From Patescibacteria group bacterium (GTDB lineage Bacteria; Patescibacteriota; Minisyncoccia; UBA6257; 2-01-FULL-56-20): a stretch of 44,522 nt of DNA. Where the stretch lies: NCBI GenBank assembly GCA_038057515.1, contig JBBUDB010000017.1:1-44522 (forward strand), written 5' to 3'. Shown here piece after piece: positions 8,437 through 44,522 of the stretch; position 1 is the first letter of the stretch; every line of letters starts with the position of its first letter. The notes below the pieces were generated by a model. That model had not been told where the DNA came from, made no database searches, and was given only the letters and a program-made list of their open reading frames with translations. The translations under genes were made by a program, and so were the position numbers.

Positions 8437-9578
8437 AGATCGTCTTCACTACGCCGGAGTACCACCAATACGATCCTCGGAAGGGGAAAACGAACGAGTA
8501 CAATAATTTTTATCTCGGGCTCAAGGCCGCCGGCCACGAAGTGATTTTCGCACCCTTCGACCGCATTCTTGAAGGGGCAAGCGAGGCGCGGCGGGGCTTT
8601 GCGGCTAAGATGTTCGATCGCAACATCACGCTCGGTCTGTTCGACCGAGGGGCAGCCGCCGGTCGGCGCCGGTTTAACGAGGAGCTTCTGGAAACCGTAC
8701 AGCGAGAAAAACCAGATCTCTTTTTCGCTTTTCTGTACACCGACGAGCTCGAACCCGCGACGCTCCGAGAGATCAAAAAGCTGACGACGAGCGTTGCCTG
8801 GTTCTCCGACGACTCGTGGCGTTTCTGGAATTACGCGGCCGAGTGGGCGCCGCGTTTCACGTGGGCGATCACAACGTACCCTTGGCGGGTAAAGGATTAC
8901 GCGCGTGTCGGTCAGCCGAACGTTGTCGTTTCTCAATGGGGCGTGAACGAGAACTTCTATCACCCTCTCCACGACCCCATTCCCGGAGGCGTGCCGGAGG
9001 TTTCGTTTGTCGGTTCGTGGAGCGCGCCGCGCGGCCGGATCGTGGCATCGTTGCTCCGCGCCGGCATTCCGGTTTCGGTCTACGGGGCCGGCTGGCAGTC
9101 GGCCGGCTGGGCAAGCCGGCGGGTGACCGACGAAGAGATGCTTTCGATCTTTACGCAAAGCAAGATCAATCTAGCGCTAAATCCGGCTCCGGGGCTTTGG
9201 AACATCACCTCTCTCGGTCAGCTGCTCGGCCGCCGGTCGGTGGATCGTTTCGTGCCGGACCTCCGACTGATCAGGAACTGGAGCGCCTTTCTCGACCATC
9301 GCATCCCGCAGATCAAAGCCCGTCACTTCGAGGTCGCGGCCTGCGGCGGTTTCACGATCGCCGGCTGGGCCGAAGGGATTGAGCAGTACTACGCGCCCGA
9401 CAAGGAAATGGTGTTTTACAAGAGTATGCCGGAGCTTATCGAAAAGGTGCGTTGGTATCTTGACCATCCCGCCGAACGCGAGGCAATCGCTCGAGCCGGC
9501 TACGAGCGGACGGTCCGAGATCACACCTACCGTCGGCGGTTCGAGGATATTTTCCGGGCGATTGGTTTTACCAAATAG
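8433..9578 (+). CDS. CgeB-like glycosyltransferase (DUF3880 / Glyco_trans_1_2 type)
   Basis: C-terminal KARHFEVAACGGF...YYAPDKEMVFY...HTYRRRFEDI is typical of the CgeB family. ATGA overlap with the upstream epimerase. Confidence 0.6.
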   Translation: MKIVFTTPEYHQYDPRKGKTNEYNNFYLGLKAAGHEVIFAPFDRILEGASEARRGFAAKMFDRNITLGLFDRGAAAGRRRFNEELLETVQREKPDLFFAFLYTDELEPATLREIKKLTTSVAWFSDDSWRFWNYAAEWAPRFTWAITTYPWRVKDYARVGQPNVVVSQWGVNENFYHPLHDPIPGGVPEVSFVGSWSAPRGRIVASLLRAGIPVSVYGAGWQSAGWASRRVTDEEMLSIFTQSKINLALNPAPGLWNITSLGQLLGRRSVDRFVPDLRLIRNWSAFLDHRIPQIKARHFEVAACGGFTIAGWAEGIEQYYAPDKEMVFYKSMPELIEKVRWYLDHPAEREAIARAGYERTVRDHTYRRRFEDIFRAIGFTK

Positions 9579-27118: not shown

Positions 27119-27188
27119 GTTCAACTAGCCTTTGTTAAATAGTTCTTGATTAAAACTCCGGTTTTTCAGCACGTAATGATCTACGGGG

Positions 27189-27216
27189 TTTACTCTTGGC
27201 CACATTGGCTTATAAT
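27189..27216 (+). promoter_or_regulatory. candidate promoter, leaderless geometry
   Basis: TTTACT (27189-27194), 16 nt, TATAAT (27211-27216), then 10 nt to the ATG at 27227. Confidence 0.4.
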
Positions 27217-27226
27217 CTCAAGCATT

Positions 27227-27928
27227 ATGAAGGCGGTACTTCTCGTCGGTGGGCAAGGGACCCGGCTTCGGCCGGTGACCTACGAAATCCCAAAGCCGCT
27301 TATCACGGTGGGGAAAAAACCGATCGTGAACCATGCCATCGAATTTCTTGACCGGCACGGTATCGATGAGGTCGGCCTGCTCGCCGCTCGCGGCCACGCG
27401 GACGACTTCCGGAGGTGGCGGAAGGGCTGGGCGGATGAGTTGCCCGCGGTGAAGATTAACATGTTCTATGAGGAGTCGCCACGCGGCACCTTCGGCGGCT
27501 TTGAGGTGCTCCGCGAGTGGCTCGGTAACGAAACATTTGTCGTTTCGAATGGCGATGATCTCAAAGATTTCGATCTCACGGCGATGATCGTTGCGCATCG
27601 CAAAAGCGGCGCCGTGGCGACCGTGGCTCTGATGCGCGTGCCCGACCCGGAGAATTTCGGCGTACCCCTTATGGAGGGGAATCGCATCGTTCGTTTTTTG
27701 GAAAAACCGTCCAAGCCGCCGTCGGATTTCGTGAACGGCGGTCTCTACGTGATGGAGCCGGCGGTTTTTGACTACGTTGATTTTAAGAAGCCCACCGTGA
27801 TGATCGAGCGCGACCTTTTCCCGGCGCTTGCCGAGGGGGGTTTGCTCTACGGTTTTCGCGGCGAAGGCGCCCGGTGTTTCGATTGCGGCACGCTTGAGCG
27901 TTGGGAACGGGCGATGAACGAGTGGTAA
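27227..27928 (+). CDS. sugar-1-phosphate nucleotidyltransferase (HddC/ManC-like)
   Basis: MKAVLLVGGQGTRLRPVTYEIPKPL signature, FLEKP, GLYV. Confidence 0.75.
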   Translation: MKAVLLVGGQGTRLRPVTYEIPKPLITVGKKPIVNHAIEFLDRHGIDEVGLLAARGHADDFRRWRKGWADELPAVKINMFYEESPRGTFGGFEVLREWLGNETFVVSNGDDLKDFDLTAMIVAHRKSGAVATVALMRVPDPENFGVPLMEGNRIVRFLEKPSKPPSDFVNGGLYVMEPAVFDYVDFKKPTVMIERDLFPALAEGGLLYGFRGEGARCFDCGTLERWERAMNEW

Positions 27929-27958
27929 AAAATGACCATTTAGTTTTTAAAAACACCA

Positions 27959-28966: not shown

Positions 28967-28995
28967 TTGCGTGATTTCCGCGCGGGGACGATAAT
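28967..28995 (+). promoter_or_regulatory. candidate promoter for the second nucleotidyltransferase
   Basis: TTGCGT (28967-28972), 17 nt, GATAAT (28990-28995), then 13 nt to the ATG at 29009. Confidence 0.4.
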
Positions 28996-29008
28996 AAATC
29001 AATTACGC

Positions 29009-29707
29009 ATGAAGGCCATCATCCTTGCCGGCGGTCGGGGCACGCGCCTCCGACCGGTCACTTATGAGATTCCGAAGCCGCTCGTGCCGGTCAAAAAGCG
29101 GCCGATCGTTAATCACCTCATCGAGTTTTTCCGCCGCCACGGCGTTGAGGATATCGGTATTCTGGCGAGTCGGGACCACGAAGAAGATTTTCGGCGCTGG
29201 CAGAAAGTTTGGGATGACGAAGTGGTCAAGGGGATAACGATGTTCCACGAAGAAACCCCGCGCGGCACTTTCGGCGGGTTGGAGCCGCTCCGCGAGTGGC
29301 TGGGCGGCGAGCGTTTTATTCTCTCGAATGGCGATGAGCTCAAAGATTTCGACCTCGCGGCGATGGAAAGATTCCACGGCGCCCAGGGAGGTACGGGCAC
29401 GATCGCGCTGGTTGAGGTGCCGAATCCATCGGAATATGGCGTGCCCGTTATGGATGGCCACCACATCAAACAATTTTTGGAAAAACCAAAAGAGCCACCG
29501 TCCAATTTCATCTCCTCGGGGCTTTATATGCTCGAACCAGAGGTCTTTAAACACGCTGACTTCAGCCAACCGATCGTCATGATCGAGCACGACATCTTTC
29601 CAAAACTAGCCGCCGAGGGTAAGCTCTATGGATTCAAGCCGCCGAATGCTCGTTGGTATGATTGCGGCACACTCGAACGCTGGGAGCGGGCGATCAAAGA
29701 GTGGTAA
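29009..29707 (+). CDS. sugar-1-phosphate nucleotidyltransferase, paralogue of 27227-27928
   Basis: MKAIILAGGRGTRLRPVTYEIPKPL. Collinear with the first copy along the whole length, roughly 60% identical by eye. Confidence 0.75.
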   Translation: MKAIILAGGRGTRLRPVTYEIPKPLVPVKKRPIVNHLIEFFRRHGVEDIGILASRDHEEDFRRWQKVWDDEVVKGITMFHEETPRGTFGGLEPLREWLGGERFILSNGDELKDFDLAAMERFHGAQGGTGTIALVEVPNPSEYGVPVMDGHHIKQFLEKPKEPPSNFISSGLYMLEPEVFKHADFSQPIVMIEHDIFPKLAAEGKLYGFKPPNARWYDCGTLERWERAIKEW

Positions 29708-29717
29708 AAATTAGTTC

Positions 29718-34220: not shown

Positions 34221-34886
34221 ATGAAGTGGTTTTTCTCGCGTCATGTCGGTTTTTGGACGAGGCGTCGGCTCGGTTCCTTCGGTCTCAGTTTCGCTCTTCT
34301 CGTGCTCAGCTTACTCGTGCAGATGAGCGCCGGAGCGGCCTCGGCCCGGAGGGCGCTCTCCTCAAGCGCGGTACACGACATCATCCTCGACAATATTCCG
34401 GTCGTCGATCTTAGCTTCGTGATCGTCCAGGGCGCGCTGATCTTTGCCCTGGGGTTTATCGCCACTGGGATCATTCGGCCCCGATACCTCATTTTCGGCA
34501 TGAAAGCGACCGCCCTCCTCGTTCTCACCAGGGCCGTCTTCATTAATCTCACGAACCTGGGCATCCACCCGAACGAACTCTTCCTGGGCGCGATGGCGTC
34601 GGCGAGCTATTCGCTTTACCAGCTGGTTGATTTTCCCGGCAATTATTTTTTCTCCGGGCACACTGCCTTGCCGCTTCTCGCGGCGCTCATCGTTTGGCAA
34701 GAACGCCCTTGGCGCCTGGCGTTCCTCGCGGCGAGCGTTTTCTTCGGAGCCAGCGTGCTTTTGGCTCATATCCACTATTCCATCGACGTCTTCGCCGCGC
34801 CCTTCATCGCTTATGGGGTGTACCGGGTCGCCGCCAAGCTTTTCCCGGCCGATTACGCGCTCGCGGTCGAAGAAGCGGCGGTTTGA
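34221..34886 (+). CDS. PAP2-superfamily membrane phosphatase-like protein
   Basis: Polytopic. SGHTALP and HIHYSIDV (HxxxD) resemble PAP2 C2/C3 motifs. Confidence 0.55.
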   Translation: MKWFFSRHVGFWTRRRLGSFGLSFALLVLSLLVQMSAGAASARRALSSSAVHDIILDNIPVVDLSFVIVQGALIFALGFIATGIIRPRYLIFGMKATALLVLTRAVFINLTNLGIHPNELFLGAMASASYSLYQLVDFPGNYFFSGHTALPLLAALIVWQERPWRLAFLAASVFFGASVLLAHIHYSIDVFAAPFIAYGVYRVAAKLFPADYALAVEEAAV

Positions 34887-35014
34887 CCCGGTAGCACAAC
34901 GGCGATACCTAAGAAGACGAGCATTTAGGGTGTCCGGGAAACGAAGAGCACTCTGGTCTTCTCTCGCATTGGCAAGGATTTCTTGTCTATTTTGTCGCCG
35001 TTGTGCTACCGGGT
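34886..35014. repeat. inverted-repeat element, copy 1 (20-bp arms, 89-nt interior)
   Basis: ACCCGGTAGCACAACGGCGA (34886-34905) is the exact reverse complement of 34995-35014. It starts at the stop codon of the PAP2 gene and ends at the -35 box of the next promoter. TTTGA flanks both sides. Confidence 0.85.
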
Positions 35015-35044
35015 TTGACATCCGAAAAACGTGACTGGTAGAAT
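35015..35044 (+). promoter_or_regulatory. candidate promoter, leaderless geometry
   Basis: TTGACA (35015-35020), 18 nt, TGgTAGAAT (-10 at 35039-35044), then 9 nt to the ATG at 35054. Confidence 0.5.
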
Positions 35045-36828: not shown

Positions 36829-37752
36829 ATGTATGAATTACTAATCATCGGCGGTGGTCCCGGCGGCGTTGCCGCCGGTATTTACGCTGCCCGAAAAAGG
36901 ATTCCGGCGGCGATCGTGGCCGAAAGCTTTGGCGGCCAGTCCATCGTGTCTGCCGACGTGCAGAACTGGGTAGGCACGAAATCCGTTTCGGGCTTTGAGC
37001 TCGCGAAGATGCTCGAAGAGCACTTGCGTGCCCAGGAAGGCATCGTGATTGTGGACGAAGACACGGTTTCGGCCGTGGTCGATAAGGGCGATCACTTCGT
37101 GGCCACGACGGCGAAGGGCCAGACCATTGAAGCGCGGCGACTCTTAATCGCCTCTGGGTCGCGGCGGCGGAAGCTCGGCGTGCCGGGAGAGAAAGAGCTC
37201 GACGGTCGGGGCGTGGCCTACTGCTCCACTTGCGATGCCCCGATCTTTAAGGGAAAGACGGTCGCGGTCGTGGGCGGCGGGAACGCCGGCCTCGAAGCCG
37301 TTCTTGATCTTTTGCCCTATGCCGAAAAAATATATCTCCTTGAATACGGCGAATCTCCCAAGGGCGATGCGGTGACACTCGCGAAAATCAAAGCCGACCC
37401 GAAGGTGGAGATAATCACCATGGCCGCGACGAACGCGATCCTCGGGGGAAAAACGGTAACAGGCTTGCGCTACGAAGATCGCCGTACGAAAGAGAAGAAG
37501 GAGCTCTCCTTGGGCGGCGTCTTCGTTGAGATCGGCGCCATTCCGAACGCGGACTTCGTGAAGGGACTCGTCGAGCTGAACTCTCTCGGCGAAATTATCG
37601 TCGACCATAAAACCCAGCGTGCCTCGCACCCGCGCATCTGGGCGGTGGGGGATGTTTCCGACGTGCTTTATAAGCAGAACAATATTTCCGCCGGCGATGC
37701 CGTGAAGGCGATCTTGAATATTGCCGAGGAGATGGCCAAGGGGAGTTTGTAG
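36829..37752 (+). CDS. trxB: thioredoxin-disulfide reductase
   Basis: IIGGGPGGVAAGIYAAR FAD motif, redox CSTCDA, second GGGNAGLEA NADPH motif, WAVGDV. Confidence 0.8.
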   Translation: MYELLIIGGGPGGVAAGIYAARKRIPAAIVAESFGGQSIVSADVQNWVGTKSVSGFELAKMLEEHLRAQEGIVIVDEDTVSAVVDKGDHFVATTAKGQTIEARRLLIASGSRRRKLGVPGEKELDGRGVAYCSTCDAPIFKGKTVAVVGGGNAGLEAVLDLLPYAEKIYLLEYGESPKGDAVTLAKIKADPKVEIITMAATNAILGGKTVTGLRYEDRRTKEKKELSLGGVFVEIGAIPNADFVKGLVELNSLGEIIVDHKTQRASHPRIWAVGDVSDVLYKQNNISAGDAVKAILNIAEEMAKGSL

Positions 37753-37774
37753 AAGGCGCCGGGGGCGGGGATCG

Positions 37775-37840
37775 ACCCCGTTAGAGGTCGCCCCGCCGCA
37801 GGCGTGGCCACGACCACCTCGGGGCGGTCTACCTCTCACG
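37775..37840. repeat. imperfect palindrome of the ACCCCGTTAGA family, copy 1
   Basis: CGTTAGAGGT-CGCCCCG (37779-37795) pairs with CGGGGCG-gtct-ACCTCTCACG (37820-37840). It shares the ordered blocks ACCCCGTTAGA, GCCCCGC and CCGCAGG with 41735-41773. Confidence 0.6.
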
Positions 37841-37918
37841 GTGTCAACCCGGTAGTACAACGGCGATGATGTCTTTTTGGAGTTGTTTTGTCGCCGTTGT
37901 ACTACCGGGTTGACACCG
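37839..37918. repeat. inverted-repeat element, copy 2 (28-bp perfect arms, 24-nt loop)
   Basis: GGTGTCAACCCGGTAGTACAACGGCGA (37840-37866) is the exact reverse complement of 37891-37917, plus the c37839/g37918 pair. The core differs from copy 1 by one compensated position (C/T). Confidence 0.9.
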
Positions 37919-37938
37919 ACCGGCAACCCGCCTAAGAT
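37910..37938 (+). promoter_or_regulatory. groESL promoter candidate
   Basis: TTGACA (37910-37915, inside the right repeat arm), 17 nt, TAAGAT (37933-37938). Confidence 0.5.
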
Positions 37939-37941
37939 GAC

Positions 37942-37968
37942 TTAGCAACCTTAGGCAAGGGTTGCTAA
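37942..37968 (+). promoter_or_regulatory. CIRCE-like operator (HrcA site)
   Basis: TTAGCAACC-N9-GGTTGCTAA versus the consensus TTAGCACTC-N9-GAGTGCTAA. It lies immediately downstream of the -10 box and upstream of groES. Confidence 0.7.
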
Positions 37969-41636: not shown

Positions 41637-41734
41637 GACGTTCCTCCTTAATGAAGCCCGGAGCGGACTCCTGCTACTTTTAGTGAAGCAGAAAACGATA
41701 AAATCGGCAAATCCCGGTCGGTGGATAAAATTTT

Positions 41735-41843
41735 ACCCCGTTAGAAGCAAAATGCCCCGCGGCTTGCCGCAGGGATGAATGCCAATACTACTCTTTGGCG
41801 AACACGGGGTTTAATGCCCCGCGTGAGCTTCTAACGGGGTTTA
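41735..41843. repeat. palindromic element of the ACCCCGTTAGA family, copy 2
   Basis: ACCCCGTTAGAAGC (41735-41748) is the exact reverse complement of 41827-41840. Internal direct repeats: AATGCCCCGCG (41751, 41813) and ACGGGGTTTA (41804, 41834). Confidence 0.8.
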
Positions 41844-44337: not shown

Positions 44338-44422
44338 GGAGGGGTCGCATAGCGGTCTAGTGCGCACGCTTGGAAAGCGTGTGTGTCGAAAGGCACCGAG
44401 GGTTCGAATCCCTCCCCCTCCG
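44338..44422 (+). tRNA. tRNA-Ser (anticodon GGA)
   Basis: Hand-folded. Acceptor GGAGGGG/CCCCTCC. Anticodon stem CACGC/GCGTG with loop TTGGAAA. Long variable arm GTGTC-GAAA-GGCAC. T arm GAGGG-TTCGAAT-CCCTC. Discriminator G. No encoded CCA. Confidence 0.85.
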
Positions 44423-44471
44423 CATTACCAAAGAACGATGCCCCTTGTGGGTATCGTTCTTTGGTAATGCG
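44421..44471 (+). other. very long hairpin immediately after the tRNA
   Basis: CGCATTACCAAAGAACGAT (44421-44439) is the exact reverse complement of 44453-44471, with further pairs extending into the loop. No U-tail. AT-rich sequence follows. Confidence 0.6.
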
Positions 44472-44522
44472 GTATTCATTGTACAAAGTTCGAATGTATT
44501 TTGCTGATAATCCTGATGCCGA

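What the first reader, a model, noticed from the sequence alone, without database searches (positions are those of the whole stretch)
34882..35020. Repeated inverted-repeat element (core CCCGGTAGYACAACGGCGA) fused to -35 boxes, copy 1 with possible TTTGA target duplication
Two intergenic loci carry the same long palindrome.
- Copy 1 has 20-bp arms (34886-34905 and 34995-35014) around an 89-nt interior.
- Copy 2 (37839-37918) has 28-bp perfect arms around 24 nt.

The single difference in the core (C versus T) is compensated in the partner arm of each copy. That argues for selection on pairing, or for copying as a unit. The right-hand side is conserved beyond the arm: TTTTGTCGCCGTTGTRCTACCGGGTT(T)GACA.

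In both cases the right arm runs straight into a TTGACA -35 box, for the DsbA-like gene and for groES. In copy 1 the left arm begins at the stop codon of the upstream gene. In copy 2 a second palindrome (37775-37840) fills the gap after the trxB stop at 37752. Copy 1 is flanked by TTTGA on both sides (34882-34886 and 35014-18).

Candidate explanations: a MITE-like mobile element that brings or creates promoters, a shared operator for a stress regulon, or an RNA hairpin acting as an atypical terminator or stabiliser (no U-tail).
Basis: seen in the sequence. Interest (0 to 1): 0.65.

Follow-up and report, generated by a model that had tools for sequence, protein, structure and literature searches.

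The report
Small mobile palindrome inserted into promoters
The repeated palindrome is a tiny transposon-like element (no gene of its own) in an uncultured groundwater Parcubacteria genome. It has inserted exactly into the TTGACA "-35" box of three already existing strong promoters (dsbA-like, groES, 16S rRNA) and rebuilt the box by duplicating TTGA, so it is a new MITE-like family with an unusual target, not a regulator site.

Summary
**Observation.** Confirmed in every detail.

**Copies.** The 19-mer arm occurs 4 times in the window against 0.01 expected by chance. A third copy lies directly on the -35 box of the 16S rRNA promoter, on another contig from the same groundwater sample.

**Empty sites.**
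- A sister species (about 88% nucleotide identity) has precise empty sites at both window loci.
- The promoter (TTGACA plus the -10 box) is already present in those empty sites.
- The element, 62 or 127 nt, sits between TTGA and CA, with TTGA repeated on both sides.
- A 99%-identical strain carries the groES copy with the direct TTGA repeat. The window's 28-bp perfect arm is therefore a secondary extension.

**More distant relative.** One relative carries a palindrome with different arms in the same position (TTGA|CCCCG...CGGGG|TTGA|CAC) at the same two promoters. Six other relatives have none at either promoter's -35 box.

**Conclusion.**
- This is a non-autonomous element with terminal inverted repeats, MITE-like, that targets TTGA^CAC.
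- It does not bring the promoter.
- It is not a conserved operator.
- It lacks a U-tail, so it is not a canonical terminator.
- No transposase was found, so the insertion mechanism (staggered cut or hairpin-type) remains inferred.

**Verdict.** A new member of a known kind, with a notable preference for -35 boxes. Moderate interest.

The parts
34887..35013 (+). Type-A element, copy 1 (long form, 127 nt). Terminal inverted repeats are CCCGGTAGCACAACGGCGA / TCGCCGTTGTGCTACCGGG, with a unique interior of about 89 nt.
   Evidence: It is absent, as a clean 132-nt gap, from the sister species (L073/L074) in alignment A1. The interior is single-copy in the metagenome runs.
34882..34886 (+). Left copy of the duplicated target TTTGA. 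The maximal direct repeat is GGTTTGAC, 34880-34887. It contains the TGA stop codon of the PAP2-family gene.
   Evidence: The empty site reads GCGGC-GGTTTGACA-CCCGG, with one copy only.
35014..35018 (+). Right copy of the duplicated target TTTGA. It forms the -35 box TTGACA (35015-35020) of the dsbA-like promoter. The -10 box TAGAAT is at 35039-35044, preceded by TG.
   Evidence: The promoter is conserved in seven lineages.
37848..37909 (+). Type-A element, copy 2 (short form, 62 nt). Terminal inverted repeats are CCCGGTAGTACAACGGCGA / TCGCCGTTGTACTACCGGG, with a 24-nt loop.
   Evidence: It is absent from L086 (sister species) and present with a direct TTGA repeat in L088 (99% identical strain), alignment A2.
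37839..37847 (+). Left flank CGGTGTCAA. It extends the palindrome to 28 bp (TCAA instead of TTGA). This is a derived state specific to this strain.
   Evidence: L088 and the X4/X7 contigs read GGGGTTGA|CCCGG at this position.
37910..37915 (+). TTGACA -35 box of the groES promoter. TTGA (37910-37913) is the right target copy. The -10 box TAAGAT is at 33-38 of the 379xx block (37933-37938).
37942..37968 (+). CIRCE-like inverted repeat TTAGCAACC-N9-GGTTGCTAA, between the groES promoter and the start codon. It is context only and not part of the element.
   Evidence: It is conserved in relatives.
37775..37844 (+). Degenerate type-B palindrome (ACCCCGTTAGAGG...CCTCTCACGGTGT), directly left of copy 2. 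It lies inside a divergent patch, 37728-37846.
   Evidence: It is absent from L088, L086 and the X4 contig.

Best explanation
The palindromes are copies of a small non-autonomous insertion element ("type A"), MITE-like.

**Anatomy (shown)**
- It has 19-nt terminal inverted repeats beginning CCCGG.
- It has no coding capacity.
- There is a 127-nt long form (copy 1) and a 62-nt form that looks internally deleted (the groES and rRNA copies).

**How it most likely works**
- Inferred: a transposase supplied in trans, not identified here, inserts it at the sequence TTGA^CAC.
- Shown: TTGA is repeated on both sides of the element.
- In a compact genome nearly every intergenic TTGACA is a sigma-70-type -35 box, so every known copy sits inside a promoter.
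- The right-hand TTGA plus the original CA rebuilds TTGACA at the original distance from the -10 box. The promoter therefore survives and the insertion is tolerated.
- Only the DNA upstream of -35 is replaced, by a strong hairpin.

**Later changes (inferred)**
- The 28-bp perfect arm in the window's groES copy is best read as a hairpin-templated (quasi-palindrome) correction, or as import of a divergent patch.
- The same kind of hairpin-templated correction, or selection on a hairpin intermediate, is a likely cause of the C/T difference that is mirrored in both arms.

**Effect on the host (inferred)**
- Probably neutral.
- At most the hairpin insulates the promoter from read-through.
For: **Structure and statistics**
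- Terminal inverted repeats are present, and the 19-mer is far above chance.

**Third copy**
- A third copy has a 92% identical sequence, loop included. It is fused to TTGACA-N16/17-TATAAT about 290 nt upstream of the 16S rRNA gene.
- Its sequencing depth matches that of the window contigs.

**Empty versus filled sites**
- dsbA locus: in the sister species (86-91% identity) the PAP2 stop and the dsbA start are 35 nt apart. The site reads GGTTTGACA...TAGAAT. The window has the same sequence plus a clean 132-nt insertion bounded by GGTTTGAC repeats.
- groES locus, three alleles that encode identical GroES: empty (L086), element with direct GGGTTGA repeats (L088), and element plus type B (window).
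- rRNA locus: a probable element-free allele, TGTG|CGGGTTGACACCCC.

**Independent relative**
- Relative L077 (DsbA 63% identical) carries a palindrome with different arms (CCCCGCACCTTT). It has the same junctions, TTGA|CCCCG...CGGGG|TTGA|CAC, at both the dsbA and groES promoters.

**Sporadic distribution**
- No palindrome abuts the -35 box of either promoter in the relatives surveyed. L078, L079, L081 and L082 were checked at both dsbA and groES, L080 at dsbA only and L083 at groES only.
- L081 does carry other palindromes nearby.

**Target statistics**
- The window has 41 intergenic TTGA/TCAA sites but only 6 intergenic TTGACA, one of which was made by the element itself.
- If insertion into intergenic TTGA were random, about 1 site in 8 would be a TTGACA. 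Five of five then has a probability of about 3e-5.
- All five targets continue TTGACA-C/T. Four or five of them read TTGACAC.

**Similar elements in the clade**
- Type B has the terminal repeat CCCCGTTAGAG. Its flanking repeats are TTTA, ATCAT and TGA. Its interiors are not conserved.
- Type C in L081 is inserted at the dsbA start codon, and the ATG is regenerated.
-.

**No family match**
- There is no Rfam family here.
- No transposase domain is present in the window.
Against: **No transposase**
- No cognate transposase or autonomous element with matching ends was found.

**Low copy number**
- Only three insertion loci were seen across eight groundwater runs. That is low for a MITE family.

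**Window groES copy**
- It has inverted flanks (TCAA...TTGA), not direct ones, so it needs a secondary event to explain it.

**Ambiguous duplication**
- The duplication length (4-8 nt) cannot be fixed, because the element ends (GGG) overlap the repeat.
- A true target duplication therefore cannot be told apart from an element-borne terminal TTGA, as in insertion 3' of TTGA without duplication.

**Direction of the change**
- Empty sites could in principle be precise deletions between the direct repeats.
- The outgroups L080 and L078, which lack the element, favour gain.

**Parallel with L077**
- In both the window and L077 the dsbA copy has a long interior and the groES copy a short one. This could hint at ancestry rather than independent insertion.

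**Missing data**
- No expression data exist.
Confidence: 0.8

Rival explanations
1. The unit is mobile, but by a different chemistry. It would be a hairpin element moving as single-stranded DNA (IS200/IS605-derived, or REPIN/RAYT-like), or a substrate of a site-specific recombinase. It would insert 3' of the tetranucleotide TTGA without duplicating it, and the right-hand TTGA would belong to the element.
For: **Target**
- The target is a specific, non-palindromic tetra- to heptanucleotide.

**Orientation**
- All three type-A copies have the same orientation relative to TTGACA. This is judged from the asymmetric loop and the TTTTG inner border.

**Empty sites**
- The empty sites are seamless.

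**Pairing**
- The difference between copies is mirrored in both arms, so the stem still pairs. This fits a hairpin intermediate.

**GTAG motif**
- The arms contain GTAG, the tag of many REPs (PMC3733652, seen in the listing).
Against: - IS200/IS605 ends are two different subterminal hairpins, not one long terminal inverted repeat.
- REPs are GTAG-headed, 20-40 nt and usually in high copy number. Here GTAG is internal to the stem and there are only 3 copies.
- No Y1/HUH gene is present in the window.
- Three of three copies in the same orientation has only a 1-in-4 chance value.
Confidence: 0.25
2. The palindrome is a cis-regulatory site: an operator or upstream activating sequence for a dimeric or looping regulator. 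This regulator would co-control rRNA, groESL and the dsbA-like redox cluster.
For: - The element occupies exactly the -36 to -60 region of three strong promoters, always in the same orientation.
- The arm centres are 43 and 109 bp apart, roughly whole numbers of helical turns.
- A different palindrome occupies the same position at the same two promoters in L077.
Against: - It is absent from the same promoters in the sister species. Six other relatives, which keep the -35, the -10 and CIRCE, have no palindrome at the -35 box of either promoter.
- The arm sequence is not conserved between lineages, and it is far longer than a typical half-site.
- The loop sequence is also 88% conserved between copies, which indicates copying rather than convergence.
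- The flanking direct repeats and clean indels are signatures of insertion.
- groES already has its own CIRCE operator.
Confidence: 0.07
3. The hairpin evolved in place as an RNA element at the 3' end of the upstream transcript. It would act as an atypical terminator, an RNase III site or a stabiliser, shielding strong promoters from read-through.
For: - The RNA hairpins are very stable on both strands.
- The left arm of copy 1 starts in the stop codon of the upstream gene.
- MITE hairpins are known to be co-transcribed and to affect mRNA stability (PMC3184786).
Against: - There is no U-tract after the stem.
- The rRNA copy is already preceded by a canonical hairpin-plus-T-run terminator.
- The sister species has no hairpin in the 22-35 nt gaps trxB-groES and PAP2-dsbA.
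- Identical sequence at three loci cannot arise in place.
Confidence: 0.05

Closest known systems
Bacterial MITEs, especially Correia elements (CREE) of Neisseria
   Same: - Size is about 60-160 bp.
- They have terminal inverted repeats, fold into one long hairpin, encode no transposase and are flanked by a short target duplication.
- They show presence/absence differences between close strains.
- They often lie just 5' of genes and are linked to promoters (PMC3184786).
   Different: - Correia elements duplicate TA and carry their own outward promoter parts and an IHF site. They occur in more than 100 copies.
- Here the duplicated target is TTGA, inside a pre-existing -35 box, so the promoter belongs to the host.
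- Only 3 copies are seen.
- The host is an ultra-small Parcubacteria (CPR) genome.
REP / REPIN elements mobilised by RAYT transposases
   Same: - Extragenic palindromes that form a hairpin.
- The between-copy difference is mirrored in both arms.
- A GTAG motif is present in the arm.
   Different: - REPs are GTAG- or CGTC-headed short stems in high copy number, have no target duplication and are usually found at gene 3' ends.
- Here GTAG is internal, direct repeats flank the element, there are 3 copies and all lie at -35 boxes.
Target-specific insertion sequences (IS200/IS605 with tetra/pentanucleotide targets such as TTAC or TTGAT; IS1397 and IS621 into REP; IS186 in the lon promoter). This comparison comes from general knowledge, not from a test here.
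   Same: - Strict choice of a short sequence motif.
- Seamless empty sites.
- Orientation bias.
   Different: - Those elements are autonomous and encode their own transposases.
- None is known to target the -35 hexamer as such and rebuild it.
IS1380-family ends (a recollection: ends CC..., 4-5 bp duplications). This is a lead only.
   Same: - The element ends start with CC(C).
- The duplication is 4-5 bp.
   Different: - No IS1380-type transposase or matching full-length IS was seen.
- This was not tested.

Membership tests
MITE (non-autonomous TIR element) | Small (less than about 400 bp), with no transposase ORF | tested here: met
   The elements are 62 and 127 nt. No ORF fits inside them.
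MITE (non-autonomous TIR element) | Terminal inverted repeats | tested here: met
   The arms are perfect over 19-20 nt in all three loci.
MITE (non-autonomous TIR element) | Flanking direct repeat (target-site duplication) | tested here: met
   - TTTGA at copy 1.
- TTGA at the rRNA copy, at the L088 groES allele and at both L077 copies.
- The window's own groES copy is the exception, with TCAA...TTGA.
- The length is ambiguous, 4-8 nt.
MITE (non-autonomous TIR element) | Empty versus filled sites in close relatives | tested here: met
   - Precise at dsbA and at groES.
- Probable at the rRNA promoter.
MITE (non-autonomous TIR element) | Repeated in the genome | tested here: met
   Three loci were found. 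No more were seen in eight runs at the sensitivity of contig laying.
MITE (non-autonomous TIR element) | A cognate autonomous IS or transposase with the same ends | not testable with these tools
   - Only 44.5 kb of the genome is held, and it has no transposase domain.
REP/REPIN-RAYT | A GTAG- or CGTC-headed 20-40 nt imperfect palindrome, in high copy number, without target duplication | tested here: not met
   GTAG lies inside the stem, there are 3 copies and direct repeats are present.
IS200/IS605-derived element (PATE) | Distinct subterminal hairpins at the left and right ends, with insertion 3' of a fixed tetra/pentanucleotide and no duplication | tested here: inconclusive
   - The fixed target TTGA and the seamless empty sites fit this family.
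- The ends, however, are one long inverted repeat rather than two separate hairpins.
Transcription-factor operator (for example HrcA/CIRCE-type) | Conserved at orthologous promoters, with fixed half-site spacing | tested here: not met
   - The element is absent from the sister species. Six further relatives have no palindrome at the -35 box of either promoter.
- Spacing is 24 versus 89 nt.
- The true CIRCE lies separately at 37942-37968.
Intrinsic (Rho-independent) terminator | GC-rich stem followed by a U-tract | tested here: not met
   The stem is followed by TGACAC. The terminator scan does not call it.
Integron attC site | RYYYAAC...GTTRRRY core sites, extrahelical bases and a neighbouring integrase | tested here: not met
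   GTTGACA does not fit GTTRRRY, the stem pairs perfectly and no integrase is present in the window.

The most novel reading that the evidence does not exclude
This would be a family of "promoter-homing" palindromic elements in Parcubacteria/CPR genomes.
- Its transposition machinery would recognise the sigma-70 -35 context TTGACAC itself.
- It would always regenerate the hexamer by duplication, giving it a safe harbour in genomes with almost no spare DNA.
- As a side effect it would place a strong cruciform or hairpin insulator at position -36 of the cell's strongest promoters (rRNA, groESL).
- Two lineages with unrelated arms hitting the same two promoters would then reflect shared target recognition, not chance.
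Probability: 0.35. Interest if true: 0.65.

Novelty: new member of a known kind. Interest (0 to 1): 0.45.

Why it matters
**Mobile DNA in CPR bacteria**
- CPR/Patescibacteria genomes are about 1 Mb and are thought to be poor in mobile DNA.
- Here small palindromic insertion elements are active on the time scale of strain divergence within one aquifer. They produce promoter-region polymorphisms at rRNA, groESL and a redox gene cluster.

**Target preference**
- If the preference for -35 boxes holds up, this would be a bacterial counterpart of eukaryotic retroelements that home to promoters.
- It would also give a natural example of an insertion site that is tolerated because the duplication restores the disrupted signal.
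- The same logic appears in a relative, where another palindrome sits in the dsbA start codon and regenerates ATG.

**Practical points**
- Such palindromes break assemblies.
- They can be mistaken for operators or small-RNA genes when CPR genomes are annotated.

Tried and rejected
**Searches that gave nothing useful**
- Genome-contig scan with a 17-specified-base pattern. It gave 67 single hits in unrelated phyla. About 69 are expected by chance for 596 Gb, and none had both arms, so there is no real relative among the GTDB species representatives.
- Metagenome scan. It found only two contigs and missed known carriers such as L088, so it cannot be used as a census.
- RNA runs for groESL. None were found, so transcription start sites and read-through are untested.
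- Viral contig scans for type-A and type-B ends. No hits.
- Rfam. Only a tRNA and the 5' end of the 16S rRNA.
- Literature searches for CPR MITEs or elements that target -35 boxes. Only general MITE/REP reviews turned up.
- One look-up was wasted on an ORF with the wrong start codon.

**Ideas rejected**
- The element carries the -35 box. The empty sites already have it.
- Integron attC. The core sites do not fit.
- REP. The tag position, copy number and flanking repeats do not fit.
- The interiors of the long forms are homologous between types or genomes. The alignment shows that only the ends are conserved.

**Relatives**
- GroEL-based relatives were at most 84% identical. The sister species' groES region was therefore reached through the identical GroES protein instead.

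Full report
**1.

- Copy 1 has perfect 20-nt arms (34886-34905 and 34995-35014) around an 89-nt interior. Copy 2 has perfect 28-nt arms (37839-37866 and 37891-37918) around a 24-nt loop.
- The 19-mer CCCGGTAGYACAACGGCGA occurs four times, against 0.01 expected.
- The single C/T difference between the copies is mirrored in the partner arm.
- Each right arm abuts a TTGACA with a well-spaced -10 box. These are 35015 TTGACA-18-TAGAAT before a DsbA/thioredoxin-fold gene, and 37910 TTGACA-17-TAAGAT before groES-groEL.
- The upstream PAP2-family ORF ends at TGA 34884-34886, inside the TTTGA that is repeated at 35014-35018.
- The hairpins are far more stable than shuffled sequence.

**2. Source and context**

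- The identical DsbA-like protein is encoded on contigs from 0.1-µm-filtered groundwater metagenomes and on a MAG, GCA_964360165.1.
- Its relatives are named Parcubacteria, Liptonbacteria or Paceibacterota by the sources that hold them.
- The window encodes cell-envelope sugar metabolism, a dsbA-grx-trxB-groESL cluster and an M48 peptidase. It encodes no transposase.
- A CIRCE-like repeat (37942-37968) sits downstream of the groES promoter and is conserved in relatives. groES therefore already has its usual operator.

**3. A third copy**

- The metagenome scan found L072.
- There the same unit reads GGGTTGA|CCCGGTAGC...24-nt loop...GCTACCGGG|TTGA|CACCCC and runs into TTGACA-N16/17-TATAAT, about 290 nt upstream of the 16S rRNA gene.
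- It is 92% identical to the groES copy, loop included.
- Its depth matches that of the window contigs in the same runs.
- A canonical hairpin-plus-T-run terminator lies about 60 nt upstream of it. The palindrome is therefore not needed as a terminator there.

**4. Empty and filled sites**

*dsbA locus*
- The closest other DsbA (85% identical) comes from a sister species with 86-91% nucleotide identity.
- There the PAP2 stop and the dsbA start are only 35 nt apart: GCGGC-GGTTTGACA-CCCGGAAAAC...TAGAAT.
- The window is identical in layout except for a clean 132-nt insertion bounded by GGTTTGAC on both sides.

*groES locus*
- Contigs encoding the identical GroES show three alleles.
- L086 (sister species) is empty: CGGCGGCG-GGGTTGACAC.
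- L088 (99% identical to the window) has the 62-nt element with a direct repeat: GGGGTTGA|CCCGG...CCGGG|TTGA|CACC.
- The window strain has the element plus a second palindrome and a diverged trxB 3' end. Its left flank reads TCAA.
- Logan contigs from another study show the L088-type flank again.

*rRNA locus*
- A contig in run X8 shows the rRNA promoter without the element.

*What follows*
- The promoters pre-exist. The element inserts between TTGA and CA of the -35 hexamer, and TTGA ends up on both sides.
- The window's 28-bp perfect arm is a derived state. It most simply arose by hairpin-templated correction of the left flank or by import of the divergent patch 37728-37846. This step is inference.

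**5. Distribution in relatives**

- L077 (DsbA 63%, GroEL 82% identical) has palindromes with different arms (CCCCGCACCTTT) at both the dsbA and groES promoters. Their junctions are exactly the same: TTGA|CCCCG...CGGGG|TTGA|CAC.
- The other relatives keep the -35, the -10 and CIRCE but have no palindrome abutting the -35 box of either promoter. L078, L079, L081 and L082 cover both promoters, L080 covers dsbA only and L083 groES only.
- The distribution is therefore sporadic and lineage-specific, which is not what a conserved operator would show.
- Outgroups that lack the element favour gain in the window's lineage over loss in the sister species.

**6. Target preference**

- The window has 332 TTGA/TCAA sites. 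Of these, 41 are intergenic. Only 6 intergenic sites are TTGACA, one of them created by the element itself.
- Five independent insertions (three of type A, two in L077) all lie in TTGA^CA of promoters that have a proper -10 box.
- If intergenic TTGA sites were hit at random this would have a probability of about (1/8)^5, or 3e-5 (my arithmetic on the counts).
- All five targets continue with C, or with T in one strain, giving TTGACAC.
- The simplest reading is a target motif of 6-7 nt that coincides with the -35 consensus, plus survival of insertions that leave the promoter intact.

**7. A wider set of similar elements**

*Type B (ends CCCCGTTAGAG)*
- One copy occupies window 41736-41839 and is flanked by TTTA. 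A degenerate copy lies at 37775-37844 and is missing from strain L088.
- It also occurs in L077 and L083.
- Only its ends are conserved between genomes.

*Type C in L081*
- It has 19-nt arms and a 90-nt interior.
- It sits in the dsbA start codon, with TGG/ATGG duplicated so that the ATG is regenerated.

*Patterns across types*
- Full-length forms of all types have interiors of about 80-92 nt. The 62-nt type-A copies therefore look like internally deleted derivatives.
- Types A and B share the terminal octamer CCCGKTAG.

**8. Mechanism**

*Shown*
- Terminal inverted repeats.
- Flanking direct repeats.
- Precise presence/absence alleles.
- The promoter pre-exists.
- There are three loci.
- The same junction logic appears in a second lineage.

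*Inferred*
- Mobilisation in trans by an unidentified transposase, with a staggered 4-bp cut at TTGA.
- Alternatively, a hairpin or single-strand route that inserts 3' of TTGA. The consistent orientation of the three copies and the seamless empty sites leave this open (about 25%).

*Effect on expression*
- This is untested, because no RNA runs were found.
- The element replaces the -36 to -60 region and adds a hairpin of -55 to -66 kcal/mol, without a U-tail.

**9. Comparison with known systems**

- The element meets the defining features of a bacterial MITE, except for an identified autonomous partner.
- Its closest functional analogue is the Correia element of Neisseria: a hairpin-forming MITE at gene 5' ends, with promoter effects and strain polymorphism (PMC3184786).
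- It differs from Correia elements in three ways: its target (TTGA within a host -35 box, not TA), the fact that it does not supply the promoter, and its copy number.
- It fails the tests for REP/REPIN, attC, an operator and an intrinsic terminator.
- No paper describing MITEs in CPR bacteria, or targeting of -35 boxes, was found.

**10. Verdict**

- This is a real feature, correctly observed.
- It is best explained as a new, low-copy MITE-like family in a Parcubacteria species, inserted into TTGACA -35 boxes that it regenerates.
The claim that the element brings or creates promoters is not, and the operator and terminator ideas are not supported.
- Interest is moderate. It would be higher if promoter homing is confirmed genome-wide.

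Noticed in passing
window 41732-41843: A second palindromic element family, type B. It is 104 nt (41736-41839), with 14-nt perfect ends ACCCCGTTAGAAGC, and is flanked by TTTA on both sides. The same ends (CCCGTTAGAG) occur in relatives: L077 at 9104-9223 and about 17999, and L083 at 8572-8809 as two tandem copies. The interiors are unrelated.
   Followed up: partly
window 37728-37846: A 119-nt patch covering the trxB 3' end and a degenerate type-B palindrome. In strains that are otherwise 99% identical (L088, X4 contig) it is replaced by 46 unrelated nt. This looks like a recombination import or an insertion next to the type-A element.
   Followed up: partly
window 37942-37968: A CIRCE-like inverted repeat, TTAGCAACC-N9-GGTTGCTAA, between the groES -10 box and the start codon. 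Relatives have TTGGCAATC-N9-GGTTGCTAA at the same place.
   Followed up: partly
window 44338-44472: A tRNA gene (44338-44422) is followed immediately by a near-perfect hairpin (24-nt arms with one mismatch, 5-nt loop; 44420-44472) that has no T-tail. Its function is unknown.
   Followed up: no
L081 191-332: In a relative, a 128-nt palindrome (19-nt arms TCCCTCACCTATTGGGGAG) is inserted in the dsbA start codon. TGG/ATGG is duplicated so that the ATG is regenerated. This is the same "duplication restores the signal" logic as at the -35 boxes.
   Followed up: partly
L079 7905-8050; L077 13510-13600; L082 9530-9600; L083 1375-1460: The groES 5' UTRs of several relatives, between CIRCE and the ATG, carry foldbacks. 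These are built from short degenerate tandem repeats on one arm and their complements on the other (for example TAGGGG... facing CCCTAAA...). The window's own UTR is short and lacks this.
   Followed up: no
window 27454-27931 vs 29233-29710: Two segments 1779 nt apart are 77-81% identical. They correspond to paralogous nucleotidyl-transferase genes (27146-27928 and 28967-29707).
   Followed up: no
L086 ~1700-1870: This public contig has a run of N and a duplicated groES 5' end just after the promoter. It is probably a scaffolding artefact. It does not affect the empty-site junction read upstream of it.
   Followed up: no
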